NCBI GenBank assembly: GCA_964016885.1
Contig: OZ024754.1
Coordinates: 31,248,001-31,312,000 of the forward strand
From: Eledone cirrhosa
Lineage: Eukaryota
Length of the DNA stretch: 64,000 nt
Reading direction: 5' to 3'
Both the position numbers and the translations under genes were made by a program. The notes under the pieces are model-generated. The model worked only from the letters and a program-made list of their open reading frames with translations. It was not told the origin of the DNA and ran no database searches. Shown here piece after piece: positions 4,057 to 54,396 of this stretch. How positions within the stretch are numbered: the stretch's first letter is position 1; every line of letters begins with the position of its first letter.

Positions 4057-4800
4057 ATATTTGGGGAGGGTCATATTTGCGTAATATTGCCAGAATTAAT
4101 AACAGAACACACTCACTGTTTGGTTGGTTTTCGCTTCTCGCTGTCTTTTATATCTGCGATCTAACTTACTCGGTCCTCAATGTTGCCATTGACTGACCGG
4201 CGGTCAAAAATAATACAGATACAATATAGACACAAACACATATATATAGTTTACATAATTTACATAAATCTTTCGTTGCACATCTGCACATAAACACACA
4301 CTAGTCACCCAGCAGACACAACACTATACACACTAGTCACACATCACACATAACACTATACACACACGCAAACGCATGCGCAAAGAAGACAAAATAAAAT
4401 AAGATAAACAAACAAGCAAATAAATAAATAAATATATAGACAGACTGAACAGAAAAAAAATGGCGTAGACATACAACACAACAGGAGGAACAATGAATAT
4501 AACACCACTGACGATGTTGCAGATGTGCAACGAAAGATTTATGTAAATTATGTAAACTATATATATGTGTTTGTGTCTATATTGTATCTGTATTATTTTT
4601 GACCGCCGGTCAGTCAATGGCAACATTGAGGACCGAGTAAGTTAGATCGCAGATATAAAAGACAGCGAAAAGCGAAAACCAACCAAACAGTGAGTGTGTT
4701 CTGTTATTAATTCTGGCAATATTACGCAAATATGACCCTCCCCAAATATAACAATATCTGTTTCGACACACGATTTCATATAAAAAACCTCGCAAAACTA
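4050..4800. mobile_element. Fold-back element with ~240 bp inverted arms (4050-4288 / 4518-4756)
   Basis: The arms are near-perfect reverse complements and lie in (TA)n. Second copy at 56547-57085. HHR-like CTGACGA-T-GTTGCA-gatg-TGCAAC-GAAA at ~4508-4540. Confidence 0.8.
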
Positions 4801-5409
4801 TATATATATATATATATATATAATGGAAAAATTTGAACAGGGACAGAACAGAGAGGCAGTACAATAAATGTTTATTAATTTCACGCTCAGGAGAGTGGGG
4901 GGTAGGTGGGGGACGACGTTTCGGGCATAAGCCCTTCCTCAGGTGAGAAGTGTGTGGGAACAGAGTTCAAAGGGTGTGTAGGGGAGTGGTGGAGAGACAT
5001 ATAGCGAAAGGTAACGGTGCGAATGAAAAAAAAACAAATAAAGATAAAAAATAAAAATAAAGCATGATCAAAATACAAGGAATGAGAAAATTTAAAAATA
5101 AAGGCATGATCAAAATAAACTGAAATTAAAAGGGGGGTAAACAGGTGGTGGAAGGGTGTGGGGTGAGTAGGGGTGGTGGCGGGTGGAGTGGGGAGAGGGA
5201 GACGGGGTGTCCGAGCGGGGAGGGCTGAAGGTGGTGTGTGTGTGTAGGTGTGCGTGTGTGTGTGTGTGTGTGTATGTGAAAGTAAGGGTTGGGGGAAAAA
5301 CGGGGTTGCATGTTCAGGAAGGGGTGTGTGTGGGGGGTGTTTTTGTGGGTCGGAGTGTCTGTGCGTGTGTGGATAGGGGGGTGGGGGGAGAGGAATCAGG
5401 AGGCTGAGG

Positions 5410-9344: not shown

Positions 9345-9690
9345 ATGAGGCAGAAGGAATATTCAATTTGTTGGTAATTCAACAAATATAAATGTTTATA
9401 ACTGATTCAGAGCACTCGACAGATTTTCTGGAGTATAATATTCAATGATATTAAATAAATAGAAACCATATTTATAAAACCATATTTATTCTATTATATA
9501 TATTTCAAGGGTACCAAAACTTTGGTACGCTCTCATCAGATAAAATACAAAGTTTGTTTTATAAATATTGACATAACCAAGAAAAGATACCTTAACAGTT
9601 CAATTTTTCTTAGATAGTCTATCCAAGAAAAACTTGAACCGTTAAGGTATCTTTTAAATATAGTTTCCATTTGTTTAATATCATTGTATA
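9345..9690 (-). mobile_element. Short PLE-like element with a hammerhead (9491-9543) and an internal palindrome (9582-9655)
   Basis: The - strand reads TTAT-CTGATGA-GAG-C-GTACCAAA..TTTGGTAC-C-CTT-GAAA-TATATA-TA-ATAG. Related to 31300-31425, 34757-34885 and 54100-54396. Confidence 0.7.
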
Positions 9691-9702
9691 TATATATGTA
9701 TA

Positions 9703-10121
9703 TATATAAGAACAAAAGATGGTTAAAAGAGTTCCATGTATTTTATTATGCGCATTTCAAAAACAAATATCATCATGCAATAATATTTGTGTTTTCATCA
9801 GATAAAACAGGAAGACATGATATGAAGGTTAAAAAACACTTGTGGATAGTTCAGTTTTAAATCAATATGTTGATTTAAAACTCAACTATCCACAAATGTT
9901 GTTTAACCTTCATATCATGTCTTCCTGTTTTATCTGATGAAAACACAAATATTATTGCATGATGATATGTGTTTTTGAAATGCGCATAATAAAATACATG
10001 GAACTCTTTTAACCATCTTTTGTTCTTATATATTATGTATACTCCAGTCCTACAAACTGTAGAGTGCTTCTTATCCGATATCTGCATTGCTTTATTGTAC
10101 TACAATAAAACTCACCTCCTA
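9703..10121 (+). mobile_element. Fold-back non-autonomous PLE-like element with a hammerhead on each strand
   Basis: ~165 bp inverted arms centred at 9867/9868. HHR at 9928-9994 (+) and 9741-9807 (-): TTTTAT-CTGATGA-stemII-GAAA-TGCGCA-TA-ATAAAA. Confidence 0.8.
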
Positions 10122-11210
10122 CATATATATATATATGTATAATATATATATTGCATTCATTGGCTTAGCTGTGGCTCGAGCTTCAACTATGCTGTATTTC
10201 CATTTGTATATATATATATCTAAACTATAATAAAGGAAAGTCTGCGGGACTGCGTATGGTTTTTTTTTTTTTTATCCCGTTTGCAAAATAAGTTGGATTA
10301 CTTTGAATAAATAATTGTTTCTACTTTAGGCAAATTACCCAGTGCATTACTGGTACTTTATTTTATCGACCCCGTAAGGATGAAAGGCAAAGTCAACCTC
10401 GGCGGGATTTGAACTCAGATCGTAAAGGGATGCAACTCTATGCTGGAAAGCACGGCGTCCGACCCTCTACCGATACTACGGCAGTGGATTAGTAGAATTG
10501 GCAGAGGATCGGGCAACAAGCTTTGCAGCATACAGCTATGTTGCTTTACATTCTCAGTTGAAATCCCACAGACGTTAGCTTTGTCTTTCAGCTTTACGTA
10601 GTCAAAAAATAAAGTACCAGTAATGCATTGGGGTTGATTTATTTGACCTTCCCTTCAAATTGCTAGCCTGGTGCCAAAAGTAGAAATAATTATTATTGTC
10701 ATTATCACTATCACCACCTTTGAATAAATAATGAATGAATATTACATAATTTATCTACTAAATTTCTTAAACAAAAATAATTTCGTAAAATTAAATAATT
10801 TAAAATTAACTTCTTTTCAAAGTTGCACTTCCGGTATATTGTTGCCACCATCACCACTTCAACTACCATATATATTTAGAAAGAGAGAGTGAGTGATGTC
10901 AACACTTCCGGTGGTGATTGCTTAAATGAACATACTAATTTTCTGTCACTAATTTTCTCTTAATGCAGTTTATATTTAATATCATCTTTTTTTAATGAAT
11001 CATGGATTATGTTAGTGATTACATAAGACAGTGTAACAACGTCTTCATTCAATTTCTGTTTATATTGTCAATTACAATTTTATTTGATGTATCATATCTA
11101 CATGTATATATACTTGCGTATAATATCAATATACACACTACACATGCTAGCAGAAAACCACCCAAAAGGTGGTTTTTCTGCTCGTATATATAATATATAT
11201 ATATATATAT

Positions 11211-14067: not shown

Positions 14068-15160
14068 TATATTTCTTTATTAGCCACAGGGGCACAAAAG
14101 AAGGGGACAAATACAAAGGGGGAAGTTTACATACAATAAAAACGTGTAAAATGTTATCACAGATGGAATTTAAAAGTTAGTCGATTTTCCCCAATAGAGG
14201 GAGACAGTTTATATGGGTAACACAGACCCCCGAAAAAAATGTGCAACCCTCATCTCCAGGAGTACGAAGAGCTTGTACTCCTTTCCTCTCCTCCTCCTTT
14301 TCCTCAACCTACAGGCTGATATAGAGAGAAGGCCCATTCACTCGGGCCATTCTCGCCACTTTCACCCACCTTTCATAAAACTTGCTGGGGTACAGCACCT
14401 CTCTCTCCATCCTGATTCTTCTTCCAAAGTGGTATTTGAAAAAAAGAATCAGTTGTTGGCCGGAGAGAAAGGTGTCTGACCTCAGCCCTTTCAACCTTGT
14501 CCACCATACAACCTCTTTCGCCATAGCTATCACACAAAGGAAAACCGCCTCTCCTTCGTTTTTGAAGGAGGGTGGCGGTTTGATCATGACAATGGACTCG
14601 GTGGTCAACTGGATTGGTCCCACCCGCGACAATAGTCGTTCCACATAGCCCCACAGGTCAGTGACGCCCGGGCAGTGTATGAATGCGTGCGCGACGGTTT
14701 CTTCGTCTCGCACGCACCTCGGACAGATCTTTTTTGCAGGGTCCCTGCCCGGGCGCCCATGTCTGTAGAGCTTGTCTCGAACTGGTAGAGCTCCTCGGTA
14801 GCACTGCCAGGCCAGGGACTTTTGGAAGTTGTCCATCGGTCCCGGGCGGAAGGTCCTACCGAACAGACTGGCCAGTTCATCTTCCTCCACGCCTAGAGTT
14901 TCACCGAGCGCGTCGTCGCACTTGCTGCGGACCAACCCTCTATAGAATGACGAAGTGGAGTCTCCACTGATCGCCGGGTCCGCCTGCCAGAGGGCTGTGA
15001 GCGCCTGAGCACATTCGATGTGCCAGTCGCCCATTTTCCTCGGTCTCTGCTTGACCCAGGACTGCAGCTCGGTCAGCGAGACGAGTCGTGGGAAGGCTCG
15101 CCTCACGAACGGGGCCCACACCGGTTGTCCGGTGAGGAATACGTAGAGATGCCGCAGCCT
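14068..15160 (-). mobile_element. 5'-truncated Tx1/L1-like LINE (zf-RVT C-terminus plus 3' UTR)
   Basis: AWQCYRGALPVRDKL...CPRC...EETVAHAFIHCP...LW CCHC motif; GC-rich; bounded by (ATAG)n. Confidence 0.85.
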
Positions 15161-15189
<29 letters not shown>

Positions 15190-15191
<2 letters not shown>

Positions 15192-15401
15192 TATTTCTTT
15201 ATTAGCCACAGGGGCACAAAAGAAGGGGACAAATACAAAGGGGGAAGTTTACATACAATAAAAACGTGTAAAATGTTATCACAGATGGAATTTAAAAGTT
15301 AGTCGATTTTCCCCAATAGAGGGAGACAGTTTATATGGGTAACACATACCCCCGAAAAAAAATGTGCAACCCTCATCTCCAGGAGTACGAAGAGCTTGAT
15401 T

Positions 15402-23239: not shown

Positions 23240-25010
23240 CATCATCATCATCATCATCATCATCGTTTAACGTCCGTGTTCCACGCTTGCATGGGTTTGG
23301 ACGGGGGTAGTCCCACTTGAGGCAAGAGTGATTGTCTTGCTCGCATAGGACTGTCTGGCAGGTTTTCTACAGTTGGATGCCCTTCCTAACACCAACCACA
23401 TTTACAGTGTGGGTCTGGGAGGTTTTTACCGTGTTGCCTACACGACCACATTACAGCGTGGACTGTGTGTTTTTTTGTCGTGACACCTACACGATCTCAT
23501 TTGTTTCGGCCTCGATGGCGCGGCACCAACATAACTTTACATAGAACGGGGTGGTGTGGATGGGGTGGGACGGGGTGTATTTTGTTAGAGATGCCTACTG
23601 GCTGGAGTAGGTTTTACTATATATTTAGGTAAGGCGGGTCTTCTCTGTTACTGAGTACCGCCAAAGGTCTCGGTCCAGTGACATTGTCTTGGAGAGGTGT
23701 AAGTGTGTGATGTCGGAGTTTATCAGCTCGTCCCAGGTTTTTCTAGGTCTGCCTATTCCGTGACTACCGTCTATCTTTATTGCCCTGCACTTTGTTATAC
23801 AGCTATCGACTTTCATGCGCATCACGTGTCCATACCAACATAGCCTTCTCTCGAGTAAACAACATCTGATCCCTCTTATCTCTAATTTTTTCCTTAGTTC
23901 GTTTATGCTTTGCCGTTCACGTATATTACTGTTACACATCCAGCGGAGCATGCAAGCTTCGTTCCTCTCTAGTCTGCGTATATCCTCTGCACACAATGCC
24001 CAGGTCTCACTGCCATGCAGCATTGCTGTTCGTATGCAGGCATCGTACAACCTGCCTTTCATTTTTAGGGAGAACCCTCTAGCGGCTAATAGTGGTATAA
24101 GCTCTCTGAACTTTTTCCATCCAGTTCTGACTCTAGCTACAGTACTTTCAGAGCACCCTCCCCCACTGCTGATTTTATCGCCCAGGTAACGGAAGCTGTC
24201 CACTATTTCTATAGAACCCTCTGCGCAATTGAAAGAGCTAGTATTTTGTGGGCACTTGCTGCTACTTATTGCACCAGAACACCGGCCACATGTGAAATCT
24301 ATGTTTTTAGTTAGCTTACCTGTGATCCCACTACATCTTTTATGCACCCATACTTTGCATTTAGGACATAAAATGGAGTTTCTACCTACGCCTTTCCTAC
24401 ACACCGAGCACGACCATTTCCCAGAAGGGATCGCCGCCTTGTTTTCTTTCCTACAAACTAGAACTTTGGTCTTAGCCAGGTTAATTTTAAGTCCTTTTGA
24501 CTCTAGGCCGTGCTTCCATGTTTGGAATTTCTTCTCTAGCTCGGCCATTGATTCCGCTATGAGTGTCAGGTCGTCTGCGTATAGGAGTTCCCATGGGCAG
24601 CCTGTCTTGAACTCCTCTGTTATAGCCTGAAGGGCAATAATAAATAGTAGGGGGCTGAGAACAGAGCCCTGATGGACGCCAACTTTTACGCTAAACTCTT
24701 CACTATATTCGTTGTTAATTCTAACCTTGCTGACTGTTTCTTTATACATGGCTTGTATAGCCCTCACAAGCCATTCGTCAATGCCTAGTTTTCTAAGAGC
24801 CCACCAGATAATGGAGCGGGGGACTCTGTCGAAGGCTTTCTCCAAGTCGACAAAAGCTAAGTAGAGGGGTTTACCTTTAGCTAGGTACTTCTCCTGTAGT
24901 TGTCGTACTATGAAAAGAGCGTCTGTGGTACTTTTGCCTGACACAAACCCGAACTGCATTTCATCTAGGTCAATTCTCTCTCTGATTAGTTGCGCTAATA
25001 TAGTTGCGCT
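23238..25010 (-). mobile_element. 5'-truncated RTE-clade LINE (RT ORF 23625-~25000, 3' UTR, (GAT)n tail)
   Basis: [71 protein letters not shown]. The N-terminal part of the listed ORF is microsatellite. Confidence 0.95.
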
Positions 25011-25069
25011 AATATATATACATATATACATACATACACACATATATATATATACATATATACATACAT

Positions 25070-25100
<31 letters not shown>

Positions 25101-25201
25101 CATATATACACACATACATACATACACACACATATATATATATACATATATACATACATACACACACACATATATATATATATATACATATATACATACA
25201 T

Positions 25202-25232
<31 letters not shown>

Positions 25233-25772
25233 CATATATACATACATACATACACACACATATATATATATATATACATATATACATACATACACACACA
25301 CACACACATATATATATATACATATATACATACATACATACATACACACACATATATATACATATATACATACATACACACACACACATATATATATATA
25401 TACATATATACATACATACACTCACACACACACACATATATATACGTACATGCATACACACACACATGCATATATATATATATATATATATATACACGCA
25501 CACATACATATATATATATATAGATATATATATATATATATGTATATACATATATACGCCCACATACATATATGTACATATATACATACATACATACATA
25601 CATACACTCCTTCCAGTGGGTCCTGTCTGAAGCAACTGTCAATGTATCTATCATCATCATCATCATCTTTGTTTAACGTCCATCTTCCACGTCCATATGT
25701 ATATATATGTATATACATATATATTCATACATATATATATATATATTTATATATATATATATATAAAAATAA

Positions 25773-26425: not shown

Positions 26426-26431
26426 TATATA

Positions 26432-26899
26432 TATATAATAAAGAAGAAATTAAAAGATGGTTAAAAGAGTTCCATATATTTTATTATGCGCATTTCGAAT
26501 ACAAAATCATCCTGGGACAAAAATTGTGTTCTCATCAGATAAAATAAGGTAAGATGATATGAGGCATAATAGCACTTGTTTACAGGAAAGTGGTAAGTCT
26601 ACATATATGATATGTAGACTACATATCATATATGTAGACTTAGCATATCATATATGTAGACTTACCACTTTCCTGTAAGCAAGTGCTATTATGCCTCATA
26701 TCATCTTACCTTATTTTATCTGATGAGAACATAATTGTTGTCCCAGGATGATTTTGTATTCTAAATGCGTATAAAAAAATATATGGAACTCTTTTAACCA
26801 TCTTTTAATTTCTTCTTTATTATATATACTCCAGTTCTACCAACTGTTGAGTGCTACTTATCTGATATATGCATAGTTTTATTTACAATATTACTCACC

Positions 26900-26902
<3 letters not shown>
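26432..26902 (+). mobile_element. Diverged subfamily of the fold-back hammerhead element
   Basis: Inverted arms ~26432-26622 and ~26643-26828. Intact HHR on - at 26477-26546 with the covarying stem II base GAA/TTC. Confidence 0.75.
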
Positions 26903-34587: not shown

Positions 34588-34801
34588 TATAATCATTTAA
34601 TGTCTATTTTCCACGCTAGCATGGGTTAGCCGAGTTGATTTTAGCTTGGTTTCTATGGCTGGATGCCCTTCCTAACGCCAACCACATTTACAGTGTGTAC
34701 TGGTGCTTTTTGTCATGATATCTACACAACCACTTTACAGCATGTATATATATATACGATATTAAACAAATGGAAACTATATTTATAAAACCATATTTAT
34801 T

Positions 34802-34859
34802 TCATTATACATATTTCAGGGATACCATATTAAAAATATGGCATGCCTTCTTCAGATAA
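34802..34859 (-). ncRNA. Minimal type I hammerhead ribozyme motif
   Basis: The - strand reads TTAT-CTGAAGA-AGG-C-ATGCCATATT..AATATGGTAT-C-CCT-GAAA-TATGTA-TA-ATGA. Confidence 0.7.
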
Positions 34860-34880
34860 AATACAATATATAAGCAGTTT

Positions 34881-35019
<139 letters not shown>

Positions 35020-44979: not shown

Positions 44980-45433
44980 ATATAAGAACAAAAGATGGTT
45001 GAAAGAGTTCCATGTATTTTATTATGCGCATTTCAAAAACAAATATCATCATGCAATAATATTTGTGTTTTCATCAGATAAAACAGGAGGACATGATATG
45101 AAGGTTAAAAAACACTTGTGGATAGTTCAGTTTTAAATCAACATATGAGAAGTAGTTCTCATGTTAGAAAACTACTTCTCATATGTTGATTTAAAACTGA
45201 ACTATCCACAAGTGTTTTTTAACCTTCATATCATGTCCTCCTGTTTTATCTGATGAAAACACAAATATTATTGCATGATGATATTTGTTTTTGAAATGCG
45301 CATAATAAAATACATGGAACTCTTTTAACCAACTTTTGTTCTTATATATTATGTATACTCCAGTCCTACAAACTGTAGAGTGCTTCTTATCCGATATCTG
45401 CATTGCTTTATTGTACTACAATAAAACTCACCT

Positions 45434-45437
<4 letters not shown>
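44980..45437 (+). mobile_element. Second copy of the fold-back hammerhead element
   Basis: Near-identical to 9703-10121 but with a different central junction. HHR at 45244-45310. Confidence 0.8.
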
Positions 45438-46810: not shown

Positions 46811-47293
46811 ATTACTCTATTACTCTATTATGTGTTCCAGCCAATAAGCTAAGGCCATGCTGAGGCACCGCCATATTAGCAGTTTAGATGATGCAATAAA
46901 TTGATTAAAGCACTCAATATTATGCAAATCATCTATCATAGATGTGGTATCATATGGTTGATACAGAAATGGAGTTAACTTTTCATTGAAAACAACAATA
47001 GGAGGCTGGACTGGAAATTTACTTTACAATTTTAATCCTGCAAAAGCACTATACATATTGCAATGGCCCAGCTTTATCATCTGATCATGATGCAAGATTT
47101 AAGTGTTTTCAGCAGGTTTTAGTTGCAGACAAGATTACATTGAAAACAATCAGAGAACAGAAAATAGGAAATTCAGGGATAGACCGGCAATTCAGTATTA
47201 TAACAGTGGCAAACGATGCCCAAATGTCACACTATCAATTAATGCCAACATTGTGGGCTGGTAAGCATGACGGAGGGGGTGGGAGTTGCTATA

Positions 47294-50200
47294 TTTTCGT
47301 TCATTGCCAGAGAACGTCTCTATGCACCACCTAAGAGAACATTAGTCTACGACCTCTTTTATACCATAAACGTGGTTCTGTCTTTGCGCGTAATTGTTTT
47401 TCACCGCTCCTATTAATGACGTATTATTCGTTTTTTCCCGTTCTTTGCCAGCGAACGTTACCACGAACCAAAGTATCGTCTTCCTGTCTTCCTCCGGTTG
47501 CAACGTTTTTTGAAATATCCACTTCTGCGTTTACAGATTGACTTTGTTAGTTTCAGCAGATCCCGTTAAGGGTGAAAGCAGCGATTCTTTGCTTAAACTT
47601 TAATCTGTTATTTTAATAAATATTTGCTCTACGGTTCTTATATATTTGATATATATTTTCCTTATCGAGCCCTCTTTGGATTTTAGTCTTCAATTTTATT
47701 ATTATTACTATTCGGCTCCTTCGGTTGAGCACTCTACTGACTTATATTCATCATGCAGAAACAACATCTGAATATTACTACAAAGAACATACCCGTACCA
47801 AGCAGGAAAACATACCTAAAACTCATGATACAGAAAACAGACGCGTTCATTAAAAGGTTGCGTTGGCGTGCCTTTTATTTCGATAATCCGCGAAAAGCAG
47901 ACAACAAACAGGATAAATTTGGATTTAAAACCTATAATAACCCTCCGTGGAACCCAGCATTGCTACCCTTCGAAAATGATGTCTTGGAACTCATTCCGAG
48001 TATCAAATTTCGGAATAGGAGCAATTCCTTCCAGCTAGACCTGAAGAATAGAATTCGTTCTATTAAGGATTCTAACCCCGTGCACGTCCATTCCGACAAA
48101 ACTGGCAACCTATATCAAGTGGAGCGCAGTACTTACCATCAACTACTACATAATGCTGTAACTAAGGATTACCGTAAAACTAATCGGTGTGTCATCAATG
48201 AAATCAACGATGCTGGGTTTAAAATCACATCTGATCTCAACATCCTGGACCGGACCGAACCTCTGGACCCTATCTCTCCCCACTTTACCCTGAAGGATCA
48301 CAAATCCAATTTTCCGAATAACCCCTCTATTCGGCTTATTAACCCAACGAAGTCCGATTTAGGTAGACTTAGTAAAACGATTCTTGATAGAATTATACCT
48401 GAAATTAGAAGTTTGGCTCCTCTCGCACTGTGGAACAATTCTTTCGCGGTGATTGATTGGTTCAACGGCATATGTAACAAGGAACATTGCCGTTTTATCC
48501 AATTCGACATCAACAATTACTACTCCCCCATCACTTTACCACTTCTCCTTAGAGCTATCAATTTCGCTAAAACACTCACAGTGGTTAAGGATTTCGAAGT
48601 CGATGTCATCCTCAATGCCCAAAAGTCGGTGATTAATTTCGACGACTCTATTTGGATTAAAAAATCCAATAGTACCCCATTCGACGTGAGTATGGGAGCC
48701 AGTGACTCTGCGGAGGTTACTGATCTTATTGGCCTTTTCCTTCTTTTCTCTATCAAGGACGAATTCCCCAACGCGGGCGGTGGTTTGTACCGTGACGATG
48801 GTCTTTTGACCATGACTAAGTGCGGACCTCGTGCTTGCGACAGGTTCAGAAAAGAACTCACAGCGTTCTTTAAAGGCTTCAACCTCTCTATACAGGTTGA
48901 GGCCAATCTCTCGGTCGTTAATTACCTCGACGTTACCCTCAATTTATTGAATGGGTTGTATTACCCGTATAGAAAGCCGAATGATACGCTTAATTACATA
49001 AGTAAGCATTCCAACCATCCTGCCAGCATAACCAAGAACCTGGTAAAAAACGTTTCGTTGAGGCTTTCCCGTCTTTCCACCAACGAGCGCATGTTCAAAG
49101 ACCATTCCACTTATTCCAATGAAGCTCTTGCTCGAAGTGGATTTGTCGATAAGGTAGCATATACAGAGTACGAAAATAGACCTAGAAGAAATAGATCCCG
49201 TCGCATTTGTTGGTTTAACCCACCATATAATATGGAGGTGGCCACACCATTAGCTAAGATCTTTCTTTCCCTTATTACGAAGCATTTTCCCCCTACACAT
49301 AAATATAGTAACATTTTTAATAGAAATACTATTAAAATGTCTTACTCTACGACTCCTAACCTTGCACATAACATCACAGCTTCAAATTTAGCTAAACTAC
49401 CTAGCCGTAGGAACACGTGCAACCCTGTAGTTAGTACTAACTGTAATTGTAGGAATCGGGCTGATTGCCCCCTATCCGGGAAATGCCTCTCTAGTAACAT
49501 TGTCTACAAATGTAAGGTTGTAACACCCACGTCTCGTAGGGCCTACATAGGGTTAACCGCCAATAGTTTCAAGCAGCGTCTTTACATGCATACCCATTCT
49601 TTTCGTTACCCTCTAAGAAGGAATATGACGTCACTTTCAGCTTATATCTGGAGTCTAAAAGACAACCACACCCAATATAAGTTACACTGGGAGATCCTAG
49701 CTAGGGCTAGATCGTATAACGGAAATAAAAGACCATGTGACCGCTGTGCCGCTGAGGCCCTGGAAATACTCTACGCCACAGACCACATCTTAAACAAAAA
49801 ATCTGAGGCAATTTCGGCTTGTAAACATAAATTGCACAAAACTTTCCTGTATTACAGCCCCACGTTATACCCTAATGGATAGCACGATCTATACGTGGAT
49901 ATTTTACGTCTTGATGTGGGAGCTAAGTATATGTTTTGTTTATTCCTTTACTTATTTGCATAGGTAAGTATATATTACCCGTATGTTTTGTGAAGGTATG
50001 TATACCTTCTCGTACGTATATTTGACTGTTATGGCGTATAATTTTTACATATTCTGGTATTTAGGGTTTGGCTATGTGTATACGGGAGTTTTGCGTCTGC
50101 GTGAGTATGCAGGTTCGTACGTATGGTGGGTGTGTGTATATGTGTACTTCTTGTTTATGTTGACTTACGTCTCCGAACATTCGTGTATTTATTTGTAGGT

Positions 50201-50858
50201 ATGTGTGTGCGCTTGTTATATACGTATTTATTTACTTATATACGTTTATATAATTATTTATTTATTTGTACACAAGCATACACACACACACATATTTATA
50301 TGTGCGTGGTTTTGTATACCTATGGTAAGGTTTTGCGTATACTTGAGTATGTACGTATCTGTTTGCGTGTATGTATTTATTTGTTTCTATTACTTCTGTA
50401 TTGTATTTATTTACTTTGTTCTTAACTCTGTAGCGGAGATTCATTTGGTCTCCTAGTTAGAATTTTAGTCTACAACTTCGGCTATACCATTTACGTGGTT
50501 TTGTCTTTGCGTGCTATTGTTCTCCACTATCTTCGTTTTTTCGTTCATTGCCAGAGAACGTCTCTATGCACCATCTAAGAGAACATTAGTCTACGACCTC
50601 TTTTATACCATAAACGTGGTTCTGTCTTTGCGCGTAATTGTTTTTCACCGCTCCTATTAATGACGTATTATTCGTTTTTTCCCGTTCTTTGCCAGCGAAC
50701 GTTACCACGAACCAAAGTATCGTCTTCCTGTCTTCCTCCGGTTGCAACGTTTTTTGAAATATCCACTTCTGCGTTTACAGATTGACTTTGTTAGTTTCAG
50801 AAGATCCCGTTAAGAGGAAAGCAGCGATTCTTTGCTTAAACTTTAATCTGTCATTTTA

Positions 50859-50866
<8 letters not shown>
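47294..50866 (+). mobile_element. Full-length Penelope-like retroelement with direct pseudo-LTRs
   Basis: The ORF is flanked by near-identical ~330 bp direct repeats (47294-47623 and 50538-50866). The 3' copy runs into (TA)n. Confidence 0.9.
47753..49882 (+). CDS. Penelope-like element polyprotein: reverse transcriptase plus C-terminal GIY-YIG endonuclease (Naiad-like)
   Basis: Uninterrupted 709-aa ORF. RT motifs FIQFDINNYY, VSMGASDSAE, LYRDDGL and VNYLDV; PLE thumb YRKP...SNHP; linker CNCRNRADCPLSGKC; GIY-YIG NIVYKC...AYIGLT...FKQRLYMH; C-terminal CDRC...E...LNKKSE...CKH. Confidence 0.95.
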   Translation: MQKQHLNITTKNIPVPSRKTYLKLMIQKTDAFIKRLRWRAFYFDNPRKADNKQDKFGFKTYNNPPWNPALLPFENDVLELIPSIKFRNRSNSFQLDLKNRIRSIKDSNPVHVHSDKTGNLYQVERSTYHQLLHNAVTKDYRKTNRCVINEINDAGFKITSDLNILDRTEPLDPISPHFTLKDHKSNFPNNPSIRLINPTKSDLGRLSKTILDRIIPEIRSLAPLALWNNSFAVIDWFNGICNKEHCRFIQFDINNYYSPITLPLLLRAINFAKTLTVVKDFEVDVILNAQKSVINFDDSIWIKKSNSTPFDVSMGASDSAEVTDLIGLFLLFSIKDEFPNAGGGLYRDDGLLTMTKCGPRACDRFRKELTAFFKGFNLSIQVEANLSVVNYLDVTLNLLNGLYYPYRKPNDTLNYISKHSNHPASITKNLVKNVSLRLSRLSTNERMFKDHSTYSNEALARSGFVDKVAYTEYENRPRRNRSRRICWFNPPYNMEVATPLAKIFLSLITKHFPPTHKYSNIFNRNTIKMSYSTTPNLAHNITASNLAKLPSRRNTCNPVVSTNCNCRNRADCPLSGKCLSSNIVYKCKVVTPTSRRAYIGLTANSFKQRLYMHTHSFRYPLRRNMTSLSAYIWSLKDNHTQYKLHWEILARARSYNGNKRPCDRCAAEALEILYATDHILNKKSEAISACKHKLHKTFLYYSPTLYPNG

Positions 50867-53646: not shown

Positions 53647-53878
53647 TATATTACTATATATATATATATAGTAATAATTGTTTCTATTTTTGGCACAAGG
53701 CCAGCAATTACCCAGTGCATTACTGGTACTTTATTTTATCGACCCCGTAAGGATGAAAGACAAAGTTAACCTCGGCGGGATTTGAACTCAGAATGGCAAG
53801 GACCGTAACTCTATGCGTCAAAGCATGGCATCCGACCCTCTACTGATACTGCCAATCCACCGCCCTTATATATATATA

Positions 53879-54060
53879 GTAATAATAAATGTGAAGACTA
53901 AAATCCAAACAGGGCTCAATAAGGATTATATATATATAATATGCATATAAATCCGTAGAGCAAATATTTATTATAAGAACAGATTAAAGTTTAAGCTAAG
54001 AATCACTGCTTTCAGGGTGAAAGCAGTGATTCTTAGCTTAATCTTTACTTTGTTCTTATA

Positions 54061-54066
<6 letters not shown>
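53879..54066. mobile_element. Inverted/fold-back fragment of the same PLE pseudo-LTR tail
   Basis: Reverse complement of ~47575-47710 joined to a forward ggtgaaagcagtgattcttagctt...aataaatat segment. Further tail copies at 31474-31573 and 63589-63638. Confidence 0.75.
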
Positions 54067-54099
<33 letters not shown>

Positions 54100-54100
<1 letters not shown>

Positions 54101-54392
54101 TACAAATATTGATATACCCTTAAAGAATGCGACCATGTCAGTTGGAAGCTCTCTTTAAGGGTATGTCAATATTTGTTTATAAAACTGATCTATATTATAT
54201 TTTATCTGATGAAAGCGCACCATAATTTTGCTTTGGTGTCCTTGAAATATGTATAGTGAAATAAATATGGTTTTATAAATATAGTTTCCATTTGTTAATA
54301 TATTGTATTTTTACTCCAAAAATTTGTTGAGTGCTTTATATCAGTTATAAAAATATTTGCTTGTTGTATCCCAACAAATTAAATATAACTTC

Positions 54393-54396
<4 letters not shown>
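54100..54396 (+). mobile_element. Short PLE-like element with a 5' inverted segment and a hammerhead (54202-54259)
   Basis: IR at 54102-54176; CTGATGA-AAG-C-GCACCA..TGGTGT-C-CTT-GAAA-TATGTA-TA; same family as 9345-9690. Confidence 0.7.

What the first reader, a model, noticed from the sequence alone, without database searches (positions are those of the whole stretch)
9703..10121. Small fold-back retroelements with a hammerhead ribozyme on both strands
Seen: three ~400-470 bp non-coding elements (9703, 26432, 44980) in (TA)n. Each is a long inverted repeat whose arms contain a type I HHR: 6-8 bp stem I, CUGAUGA, long stem II, GAAA, palindromic stem III AUGCGCAU and an AUA site (the + arm of 26432 is mutated). 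The stem II base covaries (AAA/UUU vs GAA/UUC) and the central junction differs in every copy. Known: Penelope-like elements carry minimal HHRs with palindromic stem III that act as dimers, and they make inverted 5' ends. Inference: these are either a non-autonomous retrozyme-like family or systematically truncated and inverted PLE insertions, so transcription from either side yields an HHR and long dsRNA.
Basis: partly seen in the sequence, partly recalled or inferred. Interest (0 to 1): 0.75.

Follow-up and report, generated by a model that had tools for sequence, protein, structure and literature searches.

The report
Head-to-head stubs of Hydra Penelope retrotransposon
These hairpin-shaped pieces are short paired stubs of a very abundant jumping gene of a known class, and thousands of such stubs stop at one fixed spot, often with an extra G, likely because the copying enzyme ran off the capped start of the RNA, which offers a testable clue to how this class copies itself.

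Summary
The three fold-backs and their hammerheads are real. They are not a self-standing retrozyme family. They are the 3' ends (pLTR) of a young Penelope-like element with Hydra-clade motifs and an 800-aa RT/GIY-YIG ORF; one 28-mer has 15,310 exact matches in the genome. Opposite-strand hammerhead pairs in truncated PLEs are in print (PMC4209133, PMC8557442).
The copies record a mechanism. In 45 of 48 two-ended insertions the two arms end at two different fixed sites about 80 nt apart. Truncation is not random: 30 of 75 arms stop 255 nt from the end. There 2,329 copies carry G against 2,417 with A or T, where the parent has C: a likely cap mark. Arms that stop there never pair with arms that run on (10, 11, 0 mixed). 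The ribozyme cut site is no hot spot (152 matches). Arms containing the ORF did not stop at this edge (0 of 29, a biased sample), which hints at a second, uncapped and perhaps circular template. No RNA data were available. This scan noted cap-ending and two-site Penelope stubs before on other DNA.

The parts
9702..9868 (-). E1 left arm: inverted pLTR stub, outer end at the inner end site (site 1), inner end at -253
9865..10119 (+). E1 right arm: pLTR stub from the fixed edge (-255) to the outer end site (site 2)
9741..9807 (-). type I hammerhead motif of E1 left arm
9928..9994 (+). type I hammerhead motif of E1 right arm, predicted cut after 9988
10034..10119 (+). one-sided tail of E1 between site 1 and site 2 (80-90 nt; the inner limit is blurred by TA identity with the target)
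26430..26606 (-). E2 left arm (subfamily C, about 77% identical to E1), edge to site 1; intact hammerhead at 26479-26544
26607..26651 (.). E2 junction filler: short repeated pieces of the edge sequence in both directions, at least two beginning with the extra G
   Evidence: (read directly)
26652..26902 (+). E2 right arm, edge to site 2; hammerhead at about 26714-26779 mutated in the core
44980..45157 (-). E3 left arm, site 1 to -266; hammerhead at 45017-45083
45168..45435 (+). E3 right arm, -268 to site 2; hammerhead at 45244-45310; 10-nt filler before it

Best explanation
The elements are paired, head-to-head 3'-end stubs of a Penelope-like retrotransposon with Hydra-clade motifs, likely made when its enzyme cuts both strands of a (TA)n target and copies one RNA twice from two start sites about 80 nt apart, both copies likely running off the capped 5' end of the RNA before being joined. 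Shown from sequence: the parent ORF, the two outer end sites used once each, the fixed inner edge at -255, the G excess, concordance of the two arms, and no separate lineage. Inferred: double-strand cutting and two internal starts (by analogy with the anole element in vitro), that -255 is the transcription start, that the G copies the cap, and end-joining of the two cDNAs. The hammerhead is carried along as part of the pLTR and does not set the stub ends.
For: Parent: longer copies join this 3' end to RT and GIY-YIG frames. 52 of the 150 best protein matches have an 821-codon open frame (my count); tandem units of 3.9 kb; intact-ORF copies have pLTRs 92-98% identical to E1/E3; the best Foldseek match of the model is TERT. 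Two sites: of 68 clusters taken in genome order, 50 have opposed ends; 45 pair site 1 with site 2, 3 have site 2 twice, none site 1 twice, 2 other (p 1e-10). Fixed edge: 30 of 75 arms stop at -255, 40 run through, 5 stop inside; 15 of 41 in subfamily C, whose likeness to A/B begins at this point. Genome-wide G 2,329, A or T 2,417 (25 A in the first 100 listed), run-through 5,237, against 18% G in the neighbouring strand. One template: edge+edge 10, long+long 11, mixed 0 after hand check; arms differ 2.8% within and 7.4% between loci. 14 of the 15 listed joints in short-read contigs touch 9860-9866. PMC11167929: both strands cut and extended, two internal starts that bound the tail. PMC4859970: untemplated G marks capped L1 and SVA RNA.
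Against: No RNA data place a transcription start at -255. Of the first 30 G junctions only 14 have a G that neither the partner arm nor the template supplies by my reading; 7 could come from the partner's templated base, 6 from microhomology, 3 from reiteration, and 5 of the 14 match a 9-mer found elsewhere on the element's other strand. The edge sits in a 6-nt palindrome, which could favour joins. E1's own junction has no extra G and E3 passes the edge. The partner was the nearest arm in only 17 of 32 pairs. ORF-containing arms did not stop at -255 (0 of 29), which a single capped linear RNA does not explain. PMC3846280 argues for self-priming on an antisense template instead.
Confidence: 0.7

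Rival explanations
1. Same parent and same two starts, but -255 is an RT pause, a protein roadblock or a palindrome-driven joining hot spot, not the RNA's capped end.
For: The edge is in a 6-nt palindrome; about half of the G junctions have a non-cap reading; T, which palindromic overlap gives, is common.
Against: The edge is also used when the partner arm ends elsewhere (11 edge+shorter pairs). ORF-linked copies of the same sequence never stopped there (0 of 29). G exceeds A about fourfold in AT-rich context. Mixed edge+long pairs are absent.
Confidence: 0.17
2. Fold-back by self-priming: one cDNA or antisense RNA folds at the palindrome and is copied back on itself, as proposed for Adineta PLEs.
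For: Arms of one insertion are more alike than arms of different insertions; some junctions are perfect palindromes (L097, L172); PMC3846280 Discussion.
Against: Unequal inner ends and fillers are common, both arms can carry their own extra G (L148), and fold-back alone does not predict one arm at each outer site in 45 of 48.
Confidence: 0.08
3. A self-propagating non-autonomous family (retrozyme- or SINE-like): the stubs carry an internal promoter, are transcribed and are copied in trans as their own lineage.
For: Stubs far outnumber ORF-linked ends (15,310 hammerhead matches against 257 pLTR-to-5'UTR junction matches); the label is somewhat clustered on the tree (43 changes against 55 shuffled); each stub holds edge, ribozyme and both sites.
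Against: Strong branches force at least 18 changes between short and long; 8 sets of identical rows hold both classes; the nearest neighbour is short 25, long 25, tied 34 times (near-duplicate arms and my sampling inflate clustering). Junctions differ between copies, so the fold-back is not copied as a unit. Some secondary copying from stubs is not excluded.
Confidence: 0.05

Closest known systems
Hydra clade of C-terminal EN+ Penelope-like elements (Craig et al. 2021, PMC8557442: section 11, passages and supplement tables and alignment excerpts read), e.g. Penelope-13_HM and Hydra-1_Obim
   Same: RT plus C-terminal GIY-YIG with DKT, CxCx5C, CxxC and CxH motifs; (TA)n targets; hammerhead near the 3' end; Penelope-13_HM is listed with a 5' inverted copy and a hammerhead on both strands.
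   Different: Unit 3.9 kb with a long, internally duplicated 3' UTR (Hydra generally under 3 kb); 800-aa ORF with an Asn-rich linker; hammerhead unlike the one listed for Hydra-1_Obim, with a stem II of about 15 bp; tail 80-90 nt against 30-40; thousands of stubs with a fixed inner edge.
Opposite-strand minimal hammerhead pairs of Schistosoma PLEs (Cervera and de la Pena 2014, PMC4209133, parts 1-2 of 4 read)
   Same: Hammerheads 100-700 bp apart on opposite strands, ascribed to truncated PLEs; palindromic stem III; dimer-type architecture.
   Different: The parts read do not map breakpoints, the two end sites or an extra G.
Poseidon element of Anolis in vitro (Frangieh et al. 2024, PMC11167929, parts 1-2 of 4 read)
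   Same: Both target strands cut and extended, two internal RT starts that bound the tail, AT-rich target, hammerhead cleavage not needed for insertion.
   Different: Other clade; ORF starts within the pLTR; the parts read do not test pairing of the two starts in one insertion or run-off at a cap.
Metazoan non-LTR retrozymes (bioRxiv 10.64898/2026.07.22.740005, part 1 and passages read; PMC7229834 search listing only)
   Same: Non-coding, type I hammerhead, pLTR-related.
   Different: Retrozymes are head-to-tail tandem monomers without their own ORF; these are head-to-head stubs with an ORF-bearing parent over 90% identical.
L1 twin priming and cap-templated G (PMC4859970, passages read)
   Same: Two primings on one RNA give an inversion; untemplated G at complete 5' ends.
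   Different: In L1 the inverted part is the 5' part of the copy and the two parts do not repeat each other (recalled); here both arms copy the same stretch.

Membership tests
Penelope-like elements, EN+ | Single ORF with telomerase-like RT | tested here: met
   800-aa ORF with YRDD; model pLDDT 80.9, top Foldseek hit TERT, E 3e-8. Pfam and a PDB sequence search found nothing for it.
Penelope-like elements, EN+ | GIY-YIG endonuclease | tested here: met
   LIY...YFG motif with downstream R, H, E, N matching the Hydra alignment by eye; the Pfam GIY-YIG model hit only 1 of 18 aligned relatives and not this protein.
Penelope-like elements, EN+ | pLTRs from partial tandems, 5' inverted copy, one-sided tail | tested here: met
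Hydra clade | C-terminal EN, DKT motif, CxCx5C linker, CxxC and CxH, no CCHH | tested here: met
   DKT, CNCRIKNKC, CNLC, CLH; one Cys only in the GIY-YIG core (against section 11)
Hydra clade | RWK motif | tested here: inconclusive
   RWT in P0001, RWR in P0002
Hydra clade | Canonical hammerhead and (TA)n insertion | tested here: met
Hydra clade | Generally shorter than 3 kb (a tendency in the paper) | tested here: not met
   unit 3.9 kb owing to a 1.4-kb 3' region
Hydra clade | Placement in the RT tree | not tested
   published Hydra sequences were compared by eye only
Non-LTR retrozymes | Head-to-tail tandem monomers, each with a hammerhead, without a coding parent | tested here: not met
   head-to-head stubs; ORF-linked parent 92-98% identical
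Non-LTR retrozymes | Self-cleavage and circular RNA | not testable with these tools
   needs RNA data or an assay
MITE or fold-back DNA transposon | Uniform unit with terminal inverted repeats copied as one lineage | tested here: not met
   unequal arms, one-sided tail, unique junctions, interleaved tree; target duplications cannot be read within (TA)n

The most novel reading that the evidence does not exclude
The genome records two RNA forms of one Penelope-like element. A capped linear RNA, read from the start sites near its 5' end, gives the roughly 430-bp two-armed stubs. A hammerhead-cut and ligated circle, with no cap to stop at, gives the ORF-containing and tandem copies. Each RNA is copied twice, once per target strand, from two fixed sites. 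This would be genomic evidence for the circular intermediate proposed in 2014 and would give the hammerhead a role although no stub ends at its cut.
Probability: 0.3. Interest if true: 0.72.

Novelty: new member of a known kind. Interest (0 to 1): 0.45.

Why it matters
As an object this is a known pattern: truncated, inverted PLE ends with hammerheads on both strands. Its value is as a large natural record of an unresolved mechanism. How PLEs form inverted ends, tails and tandems, and what the hammerhead does, are stated as open in PMC8557442 and PMC11167929. Thousands of young copies and dozens of intact ORFs give exact predictions (start sites at 0 and about -80, RNA start at -255, G addition, no stop at the cut site) and a ready substrate for a first biochemical test of a Hydra-clade element.

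Tried and rejected
Rfam scan: only low-complexity miRNA matches in the 150 rows shown. The repeat finder was swamped by microsatellites. Pfam and PDB sequence searches did not recognise the ORF; the fold did. Sequencing runs: no RNA holder listed; the five holders are contigs of unknown kind, usable for presence only, and sample S1 may be the source of the assembly. Hammerhead cut as the cause of stub ends: rejected, 152 matches with a non-A base before the cut product against 15,310 intact, and 19 of the first 30 were point changes; edges preceded by A are missed by this count. A strong-stop-and-jump model and a single capped linear RNA both predict stops at -255 upstream of ORFs; none seen in 29. 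Script classes needed hand checks: L145, L225, L230 and L231 were called edge+long but are direct edge-to-edge joins; L200 among the 30 edge arms is really a -261 break. Two tandem clusters were left out of the pair counts (68 of 70). Paper searches for a cap G, strong-stop or twin-priming account of PLE stubs and for octopus PLE hammerheads listed no such title; only listings were seen for most, the library lacks most subscription journals, and the preprint's supplements were not seen.

Full report
Observation. The three elements are present as described. Each has a left arm that is the reverse complement of most of the right arm, and the right arm has an extra 80-90 nt. A hammerhead pattern matches five of the six arms, the sixth (E2 plus) being mutated in the core, and no shuffle gives a match. 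The A-U to G-C change at the base of stem II is real, and a related family in the window keeps stem I, the core and a palindromic or nearly palindromic stem III with other letters. The motif does not fold as a stable monomer in ViennaRNA, which fits a dimer-type hammerhead but tests nothing about activity.

The parent. The window lies in a 3.0-Gb animal genome; an octopus-like host is inferred from earlier scan notes and recall, not from a call of mine. The E3 arm has many copies at 99%, and one 28-mer across the cut site has 15,310 exact matches. Three inverted pairs 2-4.5 kb apart were fetched; they extend the same 3' end through a long 3' UTR into RT and GIY-YIG frames. A protein search returned 150 scored matches, 52 of them in an 821-codon open frame by my count; 20 chosen loci show a nearly invariant 800-aa protein in 3.9-kb tandem units. 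Copies with intact ORFs carry pLTRs 92-98% identical to E1 and E3. E2 belongs to a subfamily about 77% identical, and 3 of its 30 loci link the pLTR directly to ORF remains 59-75% identical to that protein. The AlphaFold model is confident and its best structural match is telomerase RT. Motifs match the Hydra clade as defined in section 11 of PMC8557442 and the supplement's alignment by eye. The hammerhead listed for Hydra-1_Obim differs, so this is another family. No tree with published elements was made.

What is in print. PMC4209133 reports hammerhead pairs 100-700 bp apart on opposite strands and ascribes them to truncated PLEs. PMC8557442 describes inverted 5'-truncated copies and a one-sided tail, and its table lists Penelope-13_HM with a hammerhead on both strands. 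The object is therefore of a known kind.

Outer ends. I took the first 100 matches in genome order, 70 clusters, and fetched them. Coordinates count back from the outer 3' end. Arms end at 0 (site 2) or at about -78 to -88 (site 1). Of 68 clusters analysed, 50 have opposed ends: 45 pair site 1 with site 2, 3 have site 2 twice, none site 1 twice, 2 are other (p 1e-10 for 45 of 48). PMC11167929 shows in vitro that a Poseidon protein cuts and extends both strands and starts at two internal sites that bound the tail. I infer that each strand of the break uses one site.

Inner edge. Of 75 arms that reach the region, 30 stop at -255, 40 run on and 5 stop just inside (one of the 30 is really -261). 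In subfamily C 15 of 41 stop there, and its likeness to subfamilies A and B begins at the same motif. Two edge arms give 255 + 178 = about 430 bp, the size class of the finding. Genome-wide, the base before the edge is G in 2,329 matches and A or T in 2,417, with A in 25 of the first 100 of those; 5,237 run through with the parent's C. Edges preceded by C were not counted genome-wide. Untemplated G is the accepted sign of a capped RNA in L1 and SVA insertions (PMC4859970), and the edge reads like an initiator (recalled consensus). The G is not clean: in the first 30 G junctions I read 14 as unexplained by partner or template, 7 as possibly the partner's templated base, 6 as microhomology and 3 as reiteration. 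E2's filler consists of repeated edge pieces, at least two starting with G. In short-read contigs 14 of the 15 listed joints touch 9860-9866, so the hot spot is not peculiar to the assembly, though the sample may be the same.

One RNA for both arms. Where both arms reach the edge region, 10 insertions are edge+edge, 11 long+long and none mixed after a hand check of the one the script called mixed. Arms within an insertion differ by 2.8% against 7.4% between insertions, but the partner is the nearest arm in only 17 of 32.

Not a separate family. On a tree of 202 arms (155 columns, weakly resolved, bootstrap not settled) short and long arms are interleaved: at least 18 changes are forced, and 8 identical sets hold both. 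The 'short' label there includes some diverged or misfiled arms. Some copying from stubs cannot be excluded, given 257 exact pLTR-to-5'UTR junctions against 15,310 hammerheads.

The hammerhead. Only 152 matches have a non-A base before the cut product, and 11 of the first 30 are true edges, so the cut does not set stub ends. This agrees with the in vitro result that cleavage is not needed for insertion. One result does not fit a single capped RNA: upstream of ORFs, 29 pLTRs reach past the edge and none stops there (merged by hand; p 5e-6 against 30 of 70). That sample was chosen by ORF score, is rich in the youngest subfamily and counts units of one array separately; that subfamily does make edge stubs. 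Of 22 stops inside the pLTR, 9 lie within 5 nt of site 2 or at -92/-93, and 2 at the cut site, one of them selected for it. A circular monomer, proposed in PMC4209133, would explain no cap stop, tandems and stops after one round; long read-through RNAs from arrays would explain part of it. This is the novel case, not a result.

Earlier scan notes. I formed the cap and two-site reading before the look-up (note). The scan holds similar AI notes on other Penelope families in this and other genomes; they are leads, not support.

Verdict. Confidence that these are PLE stubs is about 0.97; in the full two-start, cap run-off mechanism about 0.7. Interest 0.45.

Noticed in passing
window 47293-50865, + strand: Full-length element of another Hydra-like family: intact 709-aa ORF (47753-49882, 36% identical to the parent studied) between direct pLTRs of about 330 nt; its hammerhead core looks degenerate; the upstream pLTR begins a few bases before an initiator-like motif.
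   Followed up: partly
window 9345-9690, 34760-34890, 54090-54395: Stubs of a related family with the same stem I, a shorter stem II and an AT-rich stem III; 9345-9690 and 54090-54395 look like one long and one short arm around a hairpin centre. The first abuts E1.
   Followed up: partly
window 53975-54065: Small fold-back whose arms resemble the pLTR end of the element at 47293 (read by eye).
   Followed up: no
window 31159 (-), 12268 (-), 2517 (+): Further hammerhead-like motifs from a loose descriptor without a chance control; many other families appear in the fetched loci.
   Followed up: no
window 23625-25421 (-) and 14309-15298 (-): Non-LTR retrotransposon frames: RVT_1 with a PHD finger, and zf-RVT.
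   Followed up: no
window about 10330-10500 and 53700-53860: Two similar copies of a short interspersed repeat, one just right of E1; SINE-like by recall only.
   Followed up: no
L064:3580-3810 and 4240-5390: The parent has an Asn-rich, low-confidence linker (residues 581-655), recalling the inserts of Adineta PLEs, and a 3' UTR built of about 220-nt internal duplications that vary between subfamilies.
   Followed up: no
run X5 (organism B, other study): Contigs over 88% alike cover the pLTR and parts of the ORF, so a close relative of the family occurs in a second labelled organism.
   Followed up: no
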